Notes: a model not told the origin generated them from the letters alone. A DNA stretch of 40,638 nucleotides from a candidate division TA06 bacterium SM23_40 (GCA_001303705.1 LJUI01000046.1:1-40638); one strand, 5' to 3'; shown: positions 1,979 through 28,980, counted from the first letter of the stretch. Made by a program: numbers and translations.

Positions 1979-3958
1979 ATGAAGGAAGAGACACCGAGAA
2001 ACAGGCGTTCCCAGAAGGCGAAGGCTCCCTCAGCGGCGACGAAATCACTGGGGCCTGTTTCGAGCCTGGAAGAGCATGTGCACGCCGATTGGTGGCGGCG
2101 GATTTTTGGCTCAGTCTACCTGAAGACGGACGCCGATGTGATCGACGATCAGCGGATCACCGCGAAGGAGGTCGACCTCTTCGGAGAGATACTGAAGCTG
2201 ACTCCCGAAGATAGGGTCCTCGATCTGTGCTGCGGCCAGGGACGGCACAGCCTCGAGCTCGTGAGAAGGGGGGTGCGGAACGTCGAGGGTCTGGATCGCT
2301 CCCACTACCTCATTCAGAAGGCGAGATCGCAGGCCAGGAAGGAAGGACTGACCATCAGATTCAGGGAAGGAGACGCGAGAAAACTCCCGTACCCTGCCGA
2401 CACGTTCAGTGCCGTGATGATTCTGGGAAACAGCTTCGGCTATTTCGAGACTGCCCAGGACGATATGCGGGTCCTGAGGGAGGTTCAGAAAGTCCTCAAA
2501 CCCTGGGGGCGCGTTCTCATCGATGTCGCCGACGGGAAATACCTGAGGCGGGAGTTCCAGCCCCGGTCGTGGGAATGGATCGACAAGAAGCAGTTCGTCT
2601 GCCGGGAGCGCTGCCTGTCAGTGGATGGGCAGCGGCTCATCTCACGAGAGGTCGTGACTCACGTGGAAAAAGGTGTGGTCGCGGACCACTTCTACGCTGA
2701 GAGACTCTACAGTCGTCAGAGCTTGACCGAGCTGCTGGAAGCGGCTGGCTTCAGCGACGTAACGTTCCATGGAGAGATCTCGCCCGAGTCCGAGCGGAAC
2801 CAGGATCTGGGGATGATGGAGCGGCGGATTGTCGCGACTGCCGTGGTGAGAAAGGAATGGTCGCCTGTGAGGCGCAGGAAAGAGCAAGCAAGCCATATCG
2901 TCGTGGTGCTCGGCGACCCCACGAAGCCCGATCTGCTGAAGCCGTCGAAGGTCTTCGACGAAGATGACATCTACACGATCGATCAGCTGAAGAGCGCTCT
3001 TCGAGATATGCAGGACTATCAGTTCACGTATCTGGATAACCACGACACGTTGATCCAGGATCTGTTAAGGGCGAAGCCGAAGATCGATATGGTCTTCAAT
3101 CTCTGCGATGAGGGTTTCAGCAATGACGCCACGAGGGAGCTTCATGTGCCTTCCTTGCTCGAAGTTCTGGGAATCCCGTACACGGGTGCCGGCCCGCAGT
3201 GTCTCGCGTACTGCTACGACAAATCGCTCGTCCGGGGAATCGCGAAGGAGATGGAGATCCCTGTTCCGGAGGCGTTCTTCATCAAGCCTGAAGACAAGGC
3301 ATTCGAGCTTCCCTTTGCGTTTCCTGTGATCGTCAAGCCGAATGTCGGCGACTCCAGCTTCGGGATAACGCAGAGGAGTGTTTGCCACAGTATCGAGCAG
3401 CTCGTCGACGCCATCTCAGAGATACGAGAGAGATTCGGCTACGAGAAGCCGATCCTGGTTGAGGAGTTCCTGACCGGAAAGGACCTGAGCCTCGGCATCA
3501 TCGGGAACCCGCCCGAGTCGTACAGGACCCTTCCGATCATCGAGGAAGACTATTCGACGCTTCCCCCCGAACTCCCTCGAATATGCGGGTACGAGGCGAA
3601 GTGGATGCCGGATTCGCCGTACTGGAAGATACGATCGATACCCGCGGAGCTGCCGGATGAGACCGAGAAGCTCATCATCGAGTGGTGTCTCAAGCTCTTC
3701 GAGCGACTTGAGTGCAGGGATTACTGCCGATTCGACTGGAGGCTGGATGGGGCCGGCAACCCGAAGCTGCTCGAGGTGAATCCCAACCCTGGATGGTGTT
3801 GGGACGGGCATCTGGCGAAGATGGCGAAAACGGTGGATATCCCCTATGCGGAGATGCTGGATGGCATACTGCGGGCGGCCGAGCAGCGATTGAGACTGCA
3901 GTCATCGCGCGGGGAGAGGGAGGAGAATGCCGCTGCAGATCCGCCGATATCGACATAG
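1979..3958 (+). CDS. Class I SAM methyltransferase fused to a D-Ala-D-Ala-ligase-like ATP-grasp domain
   Basis: N half: VLDLCCGQGRH, EGDARKLP, LKPWGRVLID. C half: VFNLCDEG, GIPYTG, DKSLVR, FPVIVKP..GDSSFGI, LVEEFLTG, YCRFDWR, LLEVNPNPG. GGAGGGAG directly precedes ATG 1979. Confidence 0.9.
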   Translation: MKEETPRNRRSQKAKAPSAATKSLGPVSSLEEHVHADWWRRIFGSVYLKTDADVIDDQRITAKEVDLFGEILKLTPEDRVLDLCCGQGRHSLELVRRGVRNVEGLDRSHYLIQKARSQARKEGLTIRFREGDARKLPYPADTFSAVMILGNSFGYFETAQDDMRVLREVQKVLKPWGRVLIDVADGKYLRREFQPRSWEWIDKKQFVCRERCLSVDGQRLISREVVTHVEKGVVADHFYAERLYSRQSLTELLEAAGFSDVTFHGEISPESERNQDLGMMERRIVATAVVRKEWSPVRRRKEQASHIVVVLGDPTKPDLLKPSKVFDEDDIYTIDQLKSALRDMQDYQFTYLDNHDTLIQDLLRAKPKIDMVFNLCDEGFSNDATRELHVPSLLEVLGIPYTGAGPQCLAYCYDKSLVRGIAKEMEIPVPEAFFIKPEDKAFELPFAFPVIVKPNVGDSSFGITQRSVCHSIEQLVDAISEIRERFGYEKPILVEEFLTGKDLSLGIIGNPPESYRTLPIIEEDYSTLPPELPRICGYEAKWMPDSPYWKIRSIPAELPDETEKLIIEWCLKLFERLECRDYCRFDWRLDGAGNPKLLEVNPNPGWCWDGHLAKMAKTVDIPYAEMLDGILRAAEQRLRLQSSRGEREENAAADPPIST

Positions 3959-10464: not shown

Positions 10465-10813
10465 GGGTCATCGACTCCGGCCGGCCTATTCGCCCTGACA
10501 CCCCGTACGGGCCGGGTGTGATCTACGGGCGACCCTGTCCGATCTGTTGTTGACTGGGGCCGAGCCCCTGGGATATACTCACGTTCGCCGTGAGCATATG
10601 TGGGTTCCGATTGCCGGCTTTGCCACGGTTAGCAGCGCCGTCTGCGACCGAGATCCCGGCTCGCGCCATGTCGAACGCCGGGAACCGGTTCCGGGCATCT
10701 CGCTCGGCCACGGTACACGCAGTCCCAATCGCATGACAGGGGACGTGCACCTCGGATGTTGGCCGAAGGGGCAGCAGAGAGACGAGGAATCGTCGGAGGA
10801 TATTCGAAACACG

Positions 10814-16017: not shown

Positions 16018-16091
16018 TGGGGCGTCGTCAAGTGGCAAGACACAGGACTTTGGATCCTGCATCGGAGGTTCGAATCCTCCCGCCCCAGCCA
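16018..16091 (+). tRNA. tRNA-Gln(TTG) with encoded CCA
   Basis: Acceptor TGGGGCG/CGCCCCA; anticodon arm CAGGA-CTTTGGA-TCCTG; T arm GGAGG-TTCGAAT-CCTCC; canonical position between ispE and prs. Confidence 0.97.
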
Positions 16092-25385: not shown

Positions 25386-25488
25386 TCTCCTCCTGCCGTG
25401 GTGTCTTCGGGATGGTTCGAGCAGATGATCGGGTCCGGAGAGATATATCAGACGGTAATGAGTCATATGAGCGATGGGAGATCTTCCA

Positions 25489-26826
25489 ATGGACCATGAG
25501 ACATTCGCAGAACAGACCCTTCGCAGGCTGAAGAGCGCCGGGGCAGATAGTGCGGAGATCTTCATCGAGGAAAGTGTCAGTCTCGAGGCGGGCGTCCGGG
25601 AGGGAGAGATCGAGACGTTGCGGCAGTCGTCACCCATGGGATATGGCATCAGGGTATTCAGGGGCGGACGGATGGCGTTCGTCGACTCGACAGACTTCTC
25701 TCAGGCTGCCACGGATGACGTCATAGACAAGGCTATCGCGCTCGCCCGGGAGGCGGGCGAGGATCCGCACCACGGCCTGCCCGCAGGGCCGATCCGCCAG
25801 CCGATGCGGCGGATCTTCGATGCGGGCCTGGAGCGGGTCTCGCTGGAGGAGAAGGTCGAGCGGTGCCGCAGGGCCGAGCAGATCGGGCTCAAGTACGATC
25901 GGCTCATCAAGGCGTGCGACGGCGCATACTACTCGGAGACGCGGGGCCGCACAACAATAGCCAACACTCGCGGAGTACTGGCCAGCTACCAGAGGACAGA
26001 CTGTTCGGTCGGAATCGAACTCGTGGCTGAGCGAGGTCCTCACAAGCAGCCTGGCGGGTATGGCGCCGGTGTCCGATTCTACGGTGATCTGCCCCGAGCA
26101 GGGGAGATCGCCAGGGAGGCGGGATATCGTGCGGTTTCACAGCTGGCCGGAGAGCCGGTGCCGAGCCAGAAGGCCCCCGTCGTCTTCGACCGACGGGCCG
26201 GGGCGAGGCTCCTCCATGGCATCGGTTCGGCCCTGAACGGGCTGTCGGTCTATCAGGGAGCATCGTTCTTGGCGGGAAGGGTGGGTGAGCGGGTCGGGTC
26301 GGAGCTCGTCACGATCATGGACGATGGCACGATGCGGAAGCGAACCGGGACGACACCTGTCGACGGCGAAGGCGTGCCCACCTCCCGGAAGGTGCTCATC
26401 GATCGGGGGATCCTCAAGGGATACATGTACAACACGTACGCCGCCAACAGAGCGGGGACGAGGTCGACGGGCAACGCATCGCGCTGGTGGTATGGCGGGC
26501 TGCCCGGGATCGGGACCACCAATTTCTATCTGGAAAAGGGGACGACATCGCGCGATGAGGTGATCGGTGGCGTGAAGGAAGGGCTGTTCGTGCTCGGGAC
26601 GCTCGGATTCGGGGTCGACTCGGTGAGCGGCAGCTTCTCCACGGGGGCGAGCGGGCTCTGGATCAAGAACGGCAAACTGACCGATCCCGTCGGGCGGGTG
26701 ACCATCGCCTCGACCCTGGACGAGATGCTCATGGGTATCGATGCCGTGGGCGACGACCTCATCTGGCTCGGTTCGATGGCAACCCCCACCTACCGCATCA
26801 AGGAGATGACGATCAGCGGGGTGTAG
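25489..26826 (+). CDS. pmbA: TldE/PmbA family protein
   Basis: GADSAEIF, SFLAGRVGERVGS, DGEGVP, STGNASR, SGSFS.GASG; lacks HExxxH; follows tldD. Confidence 0.9.
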   Translation: MDHETFAEQTLRRLKSAGADSAEIFIEESVSLEAGVREGEIETLRQSSPMGYGIRVFRGGRMAFVDSTDFSQAATDDVIDKAIALAREAGEDPHHGLPAGPIRQPMRRIFDAGLERVSLEEKVERCRRAEQIGLKYDRLIKACDGAYYSETRGRTTIANTRGVLASYQRTDCSVGIELVAERGPHKQPGGYGAGVRFYGDLPRAGEIAREAGYRAVSQLAGEPVPSQKAPVVFDRRAGARLLHGIGSALNGLSVYQGASFLAGRVGERVGSELVTIMDDGTMRKRTGTTPVDGEGVPTSRKVLIDRGILKGYMYNTYAANRAGTRSTGNASRWWYGGLPGIGTTNFYLEKGTTSRDEVIGGVKEGLFVLGTLGFGVDSVSGSFSTGASGLWIKNGKLTDPVGRVTIASTLDEMLMGIDAVGDDLIWLGSMATPTYRIKEMTISGV

Positions 26827-26929
26827 TAGCTCAGCGGGGTTTAGCAGCTCAACGGAGTTTGGCAGCTCAGCGGGGTCTAGGAGCTCAAGGGGGCTCAGCA
26901 GCTGAGCGGAGTTTGACAGTTCAACGGGG
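26813..26929. repeat. Degenerate 18-bp tandem repeat, about 6.5 copies
   Basis: TCAGCGGGGTGTAGTAGC, TCAGCGGGGTTTAGCAGC, TCAACGGAGTTTGGCAGC, TCAGCGGGGTCTAGGAGC, TCAAGGGGGCTCAGCAGC, TGAGCGGAGTTTGACAGT, TCAACGGGG. Confidence 0.9.
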
Positions 26930-27140
26930 CCGGGTGGCTGTACCGTCCTCAGTGCGCTTTCATCTCTTGTATGGCGCACCTCACATCGCTCTCTACGCGA
27001 CTTCTTTGCGTCCAGGATAATGCGCCGCGGCCTCCGTAGACCGCGGCATTGTCATTACCCCCGCGAAGATGATCGCAGCAGTGTCGCGCTGCGCCATCTG
27101 GCGCGGAGGCGCGTTAGTACTGCTGCTGAGGGCTTGCCAC

Positions 27141-27189
27141 AGAAGAAGGAGCTGAGGCGGATCTGCGTGGTGCGTCCTCGCCTCAGCTC
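27141..27189 (-). terminator. Hairpin plus pyrimidine tail, likely terminator of the candidate sRNA
   Basis: GAGCTGAGGCG (27149-27159) and CGCCTCAGCTC (27179-27189) form a perfect 11-bp stem, followed on the minus strand by CTTCTTCT. Confidence 0.6.
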
Positions 27190-27287
27190 GTGTAGTTGAA
27201 TGGGGCCGTTGCTCAGGTGGCGGAGCACTCAGCTACCGAGGAGGTGGCGTACTCGGCAGCCTACCGGCCCCATAAGCTGTCTGATCA
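27141..27287 (-). ncRNA. Candidate novel structured small RNA (three-way junction with twin CGCCACCU loops)
   Basis: Lies between a near-consensus promoter and a terminator-like hairpin, with no credible ORF. P1 TGGGGCCG/CGGCCCCA; hairpins GCTGCCGAG/CTCGGTAGC and TGCTC/GAGCA. Confidence 0.6.
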
Positions 27288-27293
27288 ACTTGT

Positions 27294-27322
27294 AGTATAT
27301 AAGATAGAGTCGAGAGTGTCAA
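27294..27322 (-). promoter_or_regulatory. Near-perfect sigma70 promoter
   Basis: Minus strand TTGACA (27322-27317), 17 nt, TATACT (27299-27294), in an AT-rich island. Confidence 0.8.
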
Positions 27323-27340
27323 GTGTGAATCTGAACGAGT

Positions 27341-27530
27341 GCTGGTCACGGCCGGTGAAGGCCAGCGGCGGCCGGCAAAGACCAACAATGGTCAGCAAGG
27401 ACGAACAAAGGCCGGTGAAGGCAAGCGAGAGCCAGTCGAGGCCAACAGACGCCACCCAAAGTCAGGAATGGCCAGGAAAGACTGGCAGGAGCCGGCGACG
27501 GCCGACAAAGAGCGTGAGAGGCCAGCCGGG
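27341..27530. repeat. Degenerate 10-bp tandem array, about 19 units, consensus GCCRGCRAAG
   Basis: In-register units include gccggtgaag, gccagcggcg, gccggcaaag, gccggtgaag, gccagtcgag, gccaggaaag, gccggcgacg, gccgacaaag. Confidence 0.75.
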
Positions 27531-27666: not shown

Positions 27667-28980
27667 CTACCGATAGAAGGCGTGAGGGGGCCAGCCGGCC
27701 AGGACGAGGAGAACGGTGATGAGGGTGGTGAAGAGGACGGCCGGGATCAGGAGGCGGTACACACGGCCGAAGTCCGCGCCGAAGTAGCCCTTCGTCAAGA
27801 CGAGACAGAGGTGGACGGGGGATGCGATTACACCCATGAATCCGCCGGAATAGGCGAGCATGACGTATGTGAGGTTGATGCCGTTCGGCGCGAGGAGATG
27901 TACGAGTATCGGGAACGCGATACCGATGTAGGCCACAGTCAGTCCGGTAATGAGCCCGACGGCGAACGGAACGGCATAGATGACGATGAGAGGAGAAATC
28001 CCGATCGACACGAGGAACTCGGGGATCACGGTCACCGCTCCCGATGCCTCGATCATCGTCTTGAAGACCATCACTCCGAGGATGAGCAGGACGAGCTCCG
28101 GAGTGACGGAGCTGACGATGATGCGCCGCATATCGCGCCAGGGTATGCGCGTGATGGCGATCAACAGTATGAGTGCGCCGACTAGGGAAAGCGCGAGAGG
28201 CACACGAAAGCCGAGCGTGGCGACGATGACGAGCACAACGGGCCAGACGGCGACGAAGAGACTCTTCAGGTGTCGGGCAGACTTGTTCGAGAGCGGTGGC
28301 GCGGGTTGGTTTGCCTCACCGAGCGACGGTGAGGCCTCGCGCGCCACAGCGACGTTCGACGCGGGCGCCGGCGAGGATGCCGGCTCCGGCCTGGGGAGGG
28401 GCCGCAGATAGAAGAGGAGGCCGGCGAGAATAGCGGCGAGCGTGAGGGGGAACTGGGCGATGACGACGTTATTGAGCGGCACACTCAGTACGGCGACGGT
28501 CAGGACGATACCGGGATAGAGCGGGAAGAAGTACTCCCAGACGTGGCGGAACCAATAATTGATCAAGGTCTTCTGTTCCGGGTTGAGCGGGTACCGCGTC
28601 GAGACCTCCTCGACCATGGGAGCCGAGAGCATGGCTCCGCCGGGCATCGGGAGGAAGCCGACGAAAGCGGCAGCGGCCGCGGCGACGAGGCGCAGATCGC
28701 GGAACAGCCCTTCCATGGCCACGATGAGCCGTTTCAGGTTCTCGATGTGCTTGAGGACCGCGCCGAGGATCGTGATGAGGAGCACGGCGGCCAGGAGGTT
28801 GAGGGTGGCCGGGGCGATGGCGGCTGATATCCCTGTCCTCGCGATCAGGGGCGGTGACATCCGAAACAACAGTCCGAGAATGAGGGCGCCGCAGAGAAGA
28901 ACATAGCCGATCCGCCACTTCAGGCGGATGAGGACGATCATGACGGCGAAGACGGCACCTATCTTCAACAGCTCGATCAC
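27667..28980 (-). CDS. DUF401 family membrane protein (putative transporter)
   Basis: Many TM helices; GFLPMPGGAMLSAPMV, INYWFRHVWEY.FPLYPG, SPVHLCLVLT..YF. Confidence 0.9.
   Translation of the reverse strand: MIELLKIGAVFAVMIVLIRLKWRIGYVLLCGALILGLLFRMSPPLIARTGISAAIAPATLNLLAAVLLITILGAVLKHIENLKRLIVAMEGLFRDLRLVAAAAAAFVGFLPMPGGAMLSAPMVEEVSTRYPLNPEQKTLINYWFRHVWEYFFPLYPGIVLTVAVLSVPLNNVVIAQFPLTLAAILAGLLFYLRPLPRPEPASSPAPASNVAVAREASPSLGEANQPAPPLSNKSARHLKSLFVAVWPVVLVIVATLGFRVPLALSLVGALILLIAITRIPWRDMRRIIVSSVTPELVLLILGVMVFKTMIEASGAVTVIPEFLVSIGISPLIVIYAVPFAVGLITGLTVAYIGIAFPILVHLLAPNGINLTYVMLAYSGGFMGVIASPVHLCLVLTKGYFGADFGRVYRLLIPAVLFTTLITVLLVLAGWPPHAFYR

What the first reader, a model, noticed from the sequence alone, without database searches (positions are those of the whole stretch)
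27141..27322. Orphan transcription unit: candidate novel sRNA with twin anti-Shine-Dalgarno-like loops
Seen on the minus strand: TTGACA-17-TATACT, then UGGGGCCG-GUAG-GCUGCCGAG[UACGCCACCUC]CUCGGUAGC-UGAG-UGCUC[CGCCACCU]GAGCA-A-CGGCCCCA, then an 11-bp hairpin with a CUUCUUCU tail, and no downstream gene. Both loops contain CGCCACCU. The first extends to CACCUCCU, identical to the canonical 16S rRNA 3' anti-SD. An A-C mismatch on the plus strand is a G-U pair on the minus strand, supporting this orientation. The 72-nt core is closed by an acceptor-like stem. Established analogies only: C-rich-loop sRNAs (6C, cuckoo/CcsR) and RNase P-processed phage antisense RNAs (P4 CI, P1 c4). I do not recognise the family. 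Inference: a trans-acting RBS-blocking or protein-titrating RNA.
Basis: partly seen in the sequence, partly recalled or inferred. Interest (0 to 1): 0.8.

Follow-up and report, generated by a model that had tools for sequence, protein, structure and literature searches.

The report
Promoter-driven small RNA with C-rich loops
This is most likely a real, previously uncatalogued small RNA gene of an uncultured sediment bacterium, one of a few sister copies in that genome, shaped like a mirror-image tRNA and carrying a loop that imitates the ribosome's mRNA-docking sequence; what it regulates is still unknown.

Summary
The window is a housekeeping chromosome contig of a 2.88-Mb MAG that stands alone in its phylum in the held genomes.

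- **Position:** the unit lies in an 840-nt gap between convergent pmbA/tldD-like and DUF401 genes.
- **Known families:** no Rfam 15 family matches it, including tRNA, C4 and 6C.
- **Copies:** the genome holds two further intact copies with promoters, plus two decayed copies and one hairpin-only remnant. P2 and P3 keep pairing through compensatory changes: 6 pairs changed on both sides, 90% of cells paired against 32-47% in slid controls.
- **Strand:** G-U pairs favour the minus strand.
- **Loops:** loop 1 (GCCACCUC) is conserved in 4 of 5 copies. The identical "twin" loop 2 occurs only in the window copy.
- **tRNA mirror:** a covariance model of the family hits one place each in 22 of 150 unrelated genomes. 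All 9 places examined are the antisense strand of a tRNA gene.
- **Limits:** no homologue was found outside this species, no RNA-seq run is available, and sites complementary to the loop are not enriched at start codons.

Verdict: a real, new sRNA family of a familiar kind. The anti-SD mechanism is plausible but untested. The scan's earlier notes hold nothing like it.

The parts
27294..27322 (-). Sigma-70-type promoter, TTGACA-17-TATACT. The -10 hexamer ends 21 nt before the core, so the predicted start is near 27287 (inferred).
   Evidence: 11 of 12; one of 107 matches of 11/12 or better in the genome, 83 of them in crude non-coding DNA. The same 21-22 nt spacing from -10 to core is seen at the two intact paralogues, which have different promoter sequences.
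27273..27291 (-). 5' leader. The motif GAUCAG/AGCU is shared with the paralogues.
   Evidence: Alignments.
27201..27272 (-). 72-nt Y-shaped core. P1 is 27272-27265/27208-27201. P2 is 27260-27252/27240-27232 with loop 1 UACGCCACCUC (27251-27241). P3 is 27227-27223/27214-27210 with loop 2 CGCCACCU (27222-27215). The junctions are GUAG, UGAG and A.
   Evidence: fold. (covariation in 5 copies). (antisense-tRNA cross-hits).
27149..27189 (-). Conserved hairpin with 11-bp perfect arms. Its sequence is nearly invariant in 4 copies and also survives in the hairpin-only remnant on C160. It may be a U-tract-less terminator or a 3' protective or functional domain.
   Evidence: arms. (helix 4: 11 of 13 pairs never vary). 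(C160 remnant). (not a canonical terminator).
27141..27148 (-). Pyrimidine tail CUUCUUCU.
27340..27530 (.). About 19 head-to-tail decamers (minus-strand consensus roughly CTTTGNYGGC) ending 18 nt upstream of the -35 hexamer. This could be phased, bent DNA or an array of binding sites for the sRNA promoter (inferred).
   Evidence: lag-10 identity 0.54, lags 20 and 30 also high, 0 of 5000 shuffles as high; the only such array in the genome apart from N runs, dinucleotide repeats and two stretches with no lag-10-specific periodicity.

Best explanation
This is an independently transcribed small RNA gene on the minus strand. The transcript is about 145 nt from the promoter to the conserved hairpin, and may be trimmed to the roughly 72-nt Y-shaped core. 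It is one member of a small family of sister sRNAs in this genome.

The closing stem P1 and the short P3 hairpin give the core the outline of a mirror-image tRNA. That shape probably stabilises the RNA and may direct its processing. The long P2 hairpin presents the conserved C-rich loop GCCACCUC, which copies part of the 16S anti-Shine-Dalgarno sequence.

The most likely action is base pairing of that loop, helped by the C-rich loop 2, with G-rich Shine-Dalgarno-like sites (GAGGUGGC) in mRNAs or RNA leaders. Pairing would block ribosome access or change leader folding.

- **Shown:** the sequence features, the structure conserved through compensatory changes, the promoters, and the absence from Rfam.
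- **Inferred:** transcription, the RNA ends, processing, and the pairing mechanism with its targets.

My odds are about 0.7 that it is a genuine structured transcript and about 0.35 that it works by SD-like pairing.
For: **Promoter.** Quality and the genome-wide intergenic bias of this consensus support it.

**Copies.** There are three intact copies: window, C88:37348-37494 and C185:5483-5627. Each has a 10-11/12 promoter ending 21-22 nt before the core, although the promoter sequences differ. Decayed copies lie at C185:3183-3356 and C73:30-98, and C160:20844-20925 keeps only the hairpin.

**Structure.** 90% of cells are paired, against 32-47% when partners are slid. Six pairs changed on both sides (4 in P2, 2 in P3). 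The covariation score is 0.195 against 0.114 shuffled, with 0 of 500 shuffles as high. Fold z = -4.4.

**Strand.** G-U 12 against A-C 4.

**Loop 1.** GCCACCUC is kept in 4 of 5 copies while the stem beneath it changes. The organism has a canonical 16S 3' end, and GGAGG is about 4-fold enriched before crude starts, 328 of 2286 against 82 of 2334 random positions.

**Context.** Neighbouring genes differ at every copy, as expected for a trans-acting RNA.

**Precedent.** C-rich loops pairing with G-rich RBSs are established for 6C sRNA (PMC6486639, passages read).
Against: - No transcript evidence exists.
- No homologue outside this species was found, so all covariation comes from 5 related paralogues, and relatedness inflates the shuffle test. 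The alignment was also fitted to the model's structure.
- The core alone folds only modestly better than shuffles (z = -2.7, -1.3 and -1.2 for the three intact copies). The single-sequence MFE of the C185 copy differs from the consensus.
- The hairpin lacks a U-tract, although U-tract terminators exist in this genome.
- GAGGTGGC is not enriched before start codons (39 of 244 against 32 of 244). Roughly 30 candidate RBSs with GAGGTGG or AGGTGGC share no theme.
- The CCU that extends the anti-SD match in the window copy lies inside the P2 stem.
- Loop 2 is not conserved in sequence.
Confidence: 0.4

Rival explanations
1. It is a decoy that binds protein or ribosomal factors. The RNA would display a copy of the 16S 3' end (CACCUC) and conserved junctions (GUAG, CUGAG, CAACGG). 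It would titrate a factor that normally recognises the anti-SD region or a tRNA-like shape, and would not pair with mRNAs.
For: The junction nucleotides and the hairpin sequence are more conserved than the stems (helix 4 has 11 of 13 invariant pairs). No target enrichment was found. The core has a tRNA-mirror architecture.
Against: No partner protein is encoded nearby at any copy. Sequence conservation among recent paralogues is weak evidence. There is no precedent in these data.
Confidence: 0.15
2. It is the upstream module of a repeated regulatory cassette, not a free-standing regulator. The ancestral unit would be sRNA1, then a second promoter, then a roughly 150-nt structured leader (E2) with a U-tract terminator, then a secreted beta-helix/NosD-like or other secreted-protein gene. 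The sRNA or its hairpin would insulate E2 or interact with it. The window copy would be an orphaned solo copy.
For: On C185 (twice) and C160 the hairpin is followed within about 10 nt by the E2 promoter. C160 keeps only the hairpin. E2 occurs at least 6 times, and in all 5 copies whose downstream DNA I read it lies ahead of a predicted secreted-protein gene. Loop 1 of the C185 copy pairs with its adjacent E2 at -29.4 kcal/mol, with 0 of 400 random 180-nt segments as low.
Against: The loops of the window copy show no special complementarity to any E2 (p of 0.13 or higher in 12 comparisons). With 36 comparisons the single strong hit is marginal after correction, and that query included stem bases. 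The window and C73 copies have no E2 nearby, and the C88 copy is followed by a different leader.
Confidence: 0.15
3. It is a tRNA-derived relic. An inverted, remodelled tRNA gene would have been copied along with tRNA 3' ends by segmental duplication or integration events. It would keep helices for historical reasons and have no regulatory role.
For: Model R2 hits the antisense strand of tRNA genes (22 of 150 genomes, 9 of 9 places examined). One copy sits directly after tRNA-Glu. Another follows a copy of that tRNA's last ~12 nt. A third follows a tRNA T-arm-like fragment. The reverse complement of the window core resembles the 5' half of the genome's own tRNA-Lys(UUU), 22 of 27 positions.
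Against: The tRNA model and ARAGORN reject both strands. Similarity to the genome's own tRNAs is borderline for the window copy (score 27 against shuffled 19.6 +/- 2.2, maximum 28) and absent for the other two. Three copies keep strong promoters at a fixed distance, and compensatory changes maintain P2 and P3, which argues for selection on the RNA. No integrase was found among the ORFs I scanned on C185, C88 or C73.
Confidence: 0.15
4. It is not a functional element. A chance promoter-like site would lie next to GC-rich palindromic intergenic DNA.
For: GC-rich intergenic DNA folds readily. This genome is rich in dispersed intergenic repeats (earlier notes e1-4889838 and e1-2860204).
Against: The unit is not one of the high-copy repeats: only the paralogues match. 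Promoter, covariation and fixed promoter-to-core spacing recur in three copies.
Confidence: 0.08

Closest known systems
C4 antisense RNA of phages P1/P7 (Rfam RF01695) and its bacterial multi-copy relatives. P4 CI RNA is a recalled analogue.
   Same: Both have a core of 70-odd nucleotides made of a closing stem P1 plus two hairpins, with exposed loops thought to pair near ribosome-binding sites. Both have a 5' end of P1 starting GG. Multi-copy families within one genome are known in Acinetobacter. C4 is cut from a longer transcript by RNase P (PMC5320573, passages read; P1 c4 annotation and fold).
   Different: There is no model match in either direction. Rfam gives no hit at E of 10 or less, and R2 scores P1 c4 at 1.5 bits. 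P1 is 8 bp here against 17 bp in the c4 MFE, and P2 is 9-11 bp against 4 bp. No complementary target sites lie just downstream in the same transcript. The context is not a phage or prophage.
6C sRNA of Actinobacteria (RF01066) and other C-rich-loop sRNAs. RsaE/RoxS, CcsR/cuckoo and LhrC are recalled, not checked here.
   Same: Stem-loops carry C-rich apical loops in a GC-rich organism. The proposed pairing is with G-rich, SD-like sequences. Sister copies in one genome are typical of CcsR and LhrC (recalled). The 6C mechanism is shown in PMC6486639 (passages read).
   Different: There is no Rfam match. The loop motif is GCCACCUC and not a C4-6 run. The hairpins are enclosed by an acceptor-like stem to form a three-way junction. 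The organism belongs to a different phylum.
tRNA (RF00005), read on the antisense strand.
   Same: An 8-bp GC-rich closing stem is followed by a 1-2-nt linker to a 4-5-bp hairpin with a 7-8-nt loop, the mirror of the acceptor and D arm. The motif CGGUAGG mirrors the junction of T stem and acceptor. Model R2 hits antisense tRNA genes at 19-34 bits.
   Different: It has only two arms, with one long P2 in place of the anticodon and T arms. The tRNA model and ARAGORN recognise neither strand. There is no CCA after P1.

Membership tests
Any Rfam 15 family | Covariance-model score at or above the family's gathering score. | tested here: not met
   the whole window gives only tRNA-Gln at 16018; 1.1 kb at E of 10 or less gives nothing on the unit; in the 96 nt around the core, the best match is GABA3 at 17.6 bits against a threshold of 57.
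C4 antisense RNA (RF01695) | Match to the family model. | tested here: not met
   No RF01695 row at E of 10 or less. Reciprocally, model R2 scores phage P1 c4 at 1.5 bits, E = 1.1.
C4 antisense RNA (RF01695) | A roughly 77-nt RNA made of P1 plus two hairpins. | tested here: inconclusive
   The outline and size are the same (72-74 nt). The helix proportions differ: P1 is 8 bp against 17 bp and P2 is 9-11 bp against 4 bp.
C4 antisense RNA (RF01695) | Loops complementary to sites a2/b2 just downstream in the same transcript, with b2 over an RBS. | tested here: not met
   in the window, the longest Watson-Crick complements of loop 1 within -700..+900 are 8 nt, at +887 and -184. Neither adjoins the RNA. 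The best duplexes are within the genomic background (-18.7 against a mean of -19.7 kcal/mol).
C4 antisense RNA (RF01695) | 5' end made by RNase P at the base of P1. | not testable with these tools
   This needs an in vitro RNase P assay or 5'-end mapping. The feature is described in PMC5320573 (passages read).
6C sRNA (RF01066) | Match to the family model. | tested here: not met
   No RF01066 row.
6C-like C-rich-loop sRNAs (functional class) | Two or more apical loops rich in C that pair with G-rich RBS regions. | tested here: inconclusive
   The loops are C-rich in all intact copies. Pairing is untested, and complementary sites are not enriched at starts.
tRNA (RF00005) | Cloverleaf recognised by the tRNA model or ARAGORN. 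| tested here: not met
   Searches give no tRNA call on either strand at the locus. Only a mirror-image resemblance is seen, through R2.
Intrinsic (Rho-independent) terminator | A GC-rich hairpin immediately followed by a U-tract. | tested here: not met
   The hairpin is present, but the tail is CUUCUUCU and the scan finds 0 terminators. True U-tract terminators occur elsewhere in the genome.
Dispersed intergenic repeats (REP/TIR-type) of this genome | Many near-identical short copies across intergenic regions. | tested here: not met
   Only 4-6 places in 2.88 Mb match. blastn-short of the 1.1-kb region finds nothing else repeated.

The most novel reading that the evidence does not exclude
The family is a mirror-tRNA sRNA. 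It would have been born from an inverted tRNA gene and still be handled by tRNA-processing enzymes, in the way RNase P handles C4. Its P2 arm would have been rebuilt to display a copy of the ribosome's anti-Shine-Dalgarno sequence. Its sister copies would control, by loop-loop contacts, a second uncatalogued leader RNA (E2) that gates a family of secreted beta-helix proteins. Together these would form a two-tier RNA circuit in a phylum with no studied RNA biology.
Probability: 0.1. Interest if true: 0.65.

Novelty: new member of a known kind. Interest (0 to 1): 0.38.

Why it matters
Regulatory RNAs of uncultured candidate phyla are almost unknown. This locus gives a concrete, testable sRNA family with clear promoters, a covariation-supported fold and an anti-SD-like loop.

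It also shows an sRNA scaffold that mirrors a tRNA. That bears on how new sRNA genes arise and how they are processed.

The neighbouring E2 leader family, found in passing, may be a new cis-regulatory RNA for secreted surface proteins.

If the sRNA is only a typical RBS-blocking regulator, it is an ordinary addition to a familiar class.

Tried and rejected
**Homologue hunts**
- blastn against phages and plasmids gave no match.
- blastn in 40 other genomes gave 0 of 40. G000 is the only genome of its phylum held.
- A YchF search of 400 genomes gave a best identity of 55%. The phyla of the two best handles hold 1 and 3 genomes, with no hits.
- The pattern scan of genome contigs gave 11 loci. All scored 15.9 bits or less with R1 and are chance matches.
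- The pattern scan of metagenome contigs gave 12 loci. Three are this genome's own contigs. Five are 99.9-100% identical copies from other assemblies. Four are chance matches, among them a coding region.
- The pattern scan of viral contigs gave 8 loci, none passing the model.

**Expression and variation**
- No RNA holder is listed among the 13 listed runs.
- Laying contigs of 4 runs gave no useful variation over the RNA.
- The other assemblies are too close to this one to show selection.

**Alternative fold**
- RNAalifold preferred pairing GGUAGGC with GCCACC. I rejected it as the main fold because all those pairs are invariant, whereas P2 has 4 compensatory pairs. It remains a possible alternative conformer.

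**Small peptide**
- A 14-codon ATG frame in the window and a 15-codon GTG frame in C88 both end at the TGA of GCUGAG. A 1-nt deletion breaks the frame in the C185 copy, and there is no SD (read).

**Ribozyme**
- The junctions GUA/G, CUGAG and AA look vaguely like a hammerhead by eye, but the G8/A9 and G12 equivalents are missing. No ribozyme family appears.

**Targets**
- k-mer enrichment, an RBS list, cis-targets and pairing with E2 gave no convincing target for the window copy.

**Other**
- The long minus-strand ORF 26137..26979 has no Pfam hit and overlaps the well-supported pmbA gene on the opposite strand.
- Earlier notes of this scan hold nothing by sequence or by words.

Full report
**Setting.** The window is the whole of contig C164 of a 2.88-Mb, 189-contig MAG, 89.8% complete. 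The held collection has no other genome of its phylum. Pfam shows ordinary chromosomal genes. These include prs, the L25 gene, pth, H+-PPase, ychF, rpsF-ssb-rplI, two tldD/pmbA-like genes and sugar-nucleotide enzymes. There is no sign of phage or plasmid, and blastn against phages and plasmids finds nothing. The finding lies in the 840-nt gap between a pmbA/tldD-like gene (25474..26826 +) and a DUF401 membrane-protein gene (27667..28980 -). It sits downstream of the DUF401 gene on the same strand and converges on the pmbA-like gene.

**Observation.** All features are present as described.
- The promoter TTGACA-17-TATACT is at 27322..27294 (11 of 12).
- The 72-nt core at 27272..27201 has P1 (8 bp), P2 (9 bp with one G-U; loop UACGCCACCUC) and P3 (5 bp; loop CGCCACCU).
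- A perfect 11-bp hairpin lies at 27189..27149, followed by the tail CUUCUUCU.
- The 150-nt unit folds into exactly this shape at -66.1 kcal/mol, z = -4.4, with 0 of 200 shuffles as good.
- The organism's own 16S rRNA ends GGAUCACCUCCUUUCU, so the CACCUCCU match is real for this species.
- The consensus promoter is meaningful here. Of 107 matches of 11/12 or better in the genome, 83 lie in the roughly 12% of DNA outside my crude ORF calls, and they include one in front of a tRNA-Met gene.
- The hairpin is not a canonical terminator (0 found).

**Not a known family.** Rfam 15 gives only tRNA-Gln at 16018 for the window. It gives nothing on the unit at E of 10 or less in 1.1 kb or in the 96 nt around the core. 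ARAGORN agrees. tRNA, C4, 6C, cuckoo and the ribozyme families are therefore all unmatched.

**Paralogues.** blastn and two covariance models find further copies in the same genome.
- C88:37348-37494 scores 167 bits with R2 and lies directly after tRNA-Glu(UUC).
- C185:5483-5627 scores 150.5 bits and is preceded by a copy of that tRNA's last ~12 nt.
- C185:3183-3356 scores 43 bits. It has a 47-nt insertion in P2 and no promoter.
- C73:30-98 is a core-only copy at a contig end. It is preceded by a tRNA T-arm-like fragment and is divergent from a dtxR-feoB-fur/feoA operon.
- C160:20844-20925 keeps only the hairpin.

The two intact paralogues have their own promoters, TTGACT/TTGACG-18-TATATT (10 of 12), embedded in a palindrome. 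These differ from the window's promoter but end at the same 21-22 nt before the core. Several copies lie near contig ends, so more may be unassembled.

**Structure support.** I scored the five copies on the model-fitted alignment.
- 90% of cells pair, against 32-47% with slid partners.
- Six pairs changed on both sides, 4 in P2 and 2 in P3.
- The covariation score is 0.195 against 0.114 shuffled, with 0 of 500 shuffles as high.
- P1 varies on one side only.
- The 3' hairpin is almost invariant (11 of 13 pairs).

Two caveats apply. There are only five related sequences, and the alignment was fitted to the structure. RNAalifold alone preferred pairing GGUAGGC with GCCACC. Those pairs never vary, so I treat this as a possible alternative conformer only.

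**What is conserved.** Loop 1, GCCACCUC, is kept in 4 of 5 copies over different stems. Loop 2 is C-rich but variable (CGCCACCU, AGCCCCC, AGCUACC, AGCCGCC, UCGCCG). The identical twin loops are therefore peculiar to the window copy. Only CACCUC of the anti-SD is common to the family. In the window the extra CU is part of the P2 stem.

**Mirror-tRNA shape.** Model R2 was run over 150 unrelated genomes and hit exactly one place in each of 22 genomes, at 19-34 bits. All 9 places for which loci were returned lie on the strand opposite an annotated tRNA, mostly tRNA-Met(CAU) but also Lys, Trp and Ala. The other 13 were not examined.

The matching parts are P1 (acceptor), CGGUAGG (the T-stem/acceptor junction) and P3 with its 1-2-nt linker (the D arm). 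The reverse complement of the window core resembles the 5' half of the genome's own tRNA-Lys(UUU), 22 of 27 positions. The score is borderline, 27 against shuffled 19.6 +/- 2.2 with a maximum of 28, and the other two copies show nothing. The architecture is therefore tRNA-like in mirror image, and descent from an inverted tRNA gene is possible but unproven.

In the sense orientation P3 (5 bp with a 7-8-nt loop) sits where a T arm sits. This gives an acceptor/T-arm-like stack, the kind of shape RNase P accepts in C4 RNA (PMC5320573, passages read).

**Comparison with C4.** I fetched phage P1 c4 (77 nt). Its MFE has a 17-bp P1 and two short hairpins. R2 scores it at 1.5 bits, and Rfam's C4 model does not see our RNA. 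C4's targets lie immediately downstream in its own transcript. Here the flanks hold no such sites. The resemblance is in outline only.

**Targets.**
- GGAGG is about 4-fold enriched upstream of crude starts, so the organism uses SD pairing.
- The extended complement GAGGTGGC is not enriched (39 of 244 sites are followed by an ORF start, against 32 of 244 for the reverse complement).
- Roughly 30 candidate RBSs with GAGGTGG or AGGTGGC share no functional theme (a few rows there are contig-edge artefacts).
- No target can be named.

**A linked second RNA (E2).** On C185 (twice) and C160 the hairpin is followed within about 10 nt by a promoter (TTGACA-17-TAGACT or TAAACT). A conserved structured RNA of about 150 nt follows, ending in a U-tract terminator. 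An RBS and a gene for a protein with a signal-peptide-like N-terminus come next. These proteins have beta-helix/NosD Pfam hits or are repeat proteins. Further E2 copies lie on C28, C128 and C117. None has an Rfam hit at gathering (for C185) or at E of 5 or less on L004 and L010.

Loop 1 of the C185 copy pairs with its adjacent E2 at -29.4 kcal/mol, with 0 of 400 random segments as low. The window copy's loops show nothing (p of 0.13 or higher), and 36 comparisons were made. This is a lead, not evidence.

**No outside homologues and no expression data.** See Tried and rejected. The family is so far confined to one species. The other assemblies that carry it are 99.9-100% identical to this one.

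**Conclusion.** The unit is most likely a genuine sRNA gene of a new family in Rfam terms. I made no literature search able to show that it is undescribed. The searches concerned analogues only. Its kind is familiar: a promoter-driven sRNA with C-rich loops and sister copies. Its unusual traits are the mirror-tRNA scaffold, the anti-SD-like loop, the links to tRNA genes or fragments and to the E2 cassettes, and a unique decamer array upstream of its promoter. The mechanism remains inferred.

The names RsaE/RoxS, CcsR/cuckoo, LhrC and P4 CI are recalled and were not checked in any call.

Noticed in passing
Own genome: C185:3392-3560 and C185:5665-5830 (L002, L004), C160:20961-21130 (L010), C28 near 3010-3180, C128 near 10470-10640, C117 minus strand near the contig end: A second uncatalogued RNA family (E2) with at least 6 copies. 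Each has a consensus promoter, a conserved fold of about 150 nt (a closing stem around a covarying hairpin and a small GCC-CGGU-GGC hairpin) and a U-tract terminator. In all 5 copies whose downstream DNA I read, an RBS and a gene for a predicted secreted protein follow; the 2 scanned with Pfam gave one beta-helix/NosD hit and one no hit. It looks like a riboswitch-like or attenuator leader. There is no Rfam hit.
   Followed up: partly
window 27340-27530: About 19 head-to-tail decamers (minus-strand consensus roughly CTTTGNYGGC) ending 18 nt upstream of the sRNA's -35 hexamer. Lag-10 identity is 0.54, with 0 of 5000 shuffles as high. It is the only such array in the genome apart from N runs, dinucleotide repeats and two stretches with no lag-10-specific periodicity. 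It could be phased bent DNA or a protein-binding array.
   Followed up: partly
window 26813-26929: An 18-nt tandem repeat with 6.5 copies (also read as a 54-nt period) starts inside the last codons of the pmbA/tldD-like gene and runs into the intergenic gap. It is not found elsewhere in the genome.
   Followed up: no
L004:1441-1487 (C185) and the equivalent at L003 (C88): The promoters of the two intact paralogues are wrapped in a palindrome (GCCTAGGG...CCCTAGGC) followed by TATTATATT. This gives a sub-threshold match to Rfam Acido-Lenti-1 (24.9 bits against a threshold of 37). It may be an operator, and it raises the question of whether that Rfam motif is partly a promoter element.
   Followed up: no
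C73 (L059) minus strand about 100-130, and C28 about 2930-2960: Two copies of the same decayed tRNA 3' fragment (a T-loop GGTTCGAGT followed by CTGCCCGGGGAGC) lie directly upstream of an sRNA core (C73) and of an E2 promoter (C28). C185 carries the last ~12 nt of tRNA-Glu before its sRNA copy. The RNA modules appear to have spread together with tRNA 3' ends.
   Followed up: partly
L003:1700-1735 (C88): A canonical hairpin-plus-U-tract terminator lies about 110 nt downstream of the conserved hairpin of the C88 copy. That copy's transcript may therefore be about 260 nt long.
   Followed up: no
L039:1452-1716: In another assembly, the DNA upstream of the C185-type sRNA copy continues as a full tRNA-Glu-like sequence and does not follow the C185 flank (88.8% identity to C88:37223-37488). 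This is either a strain variant or an assembly chimera across the repeat.
   Followed up: no
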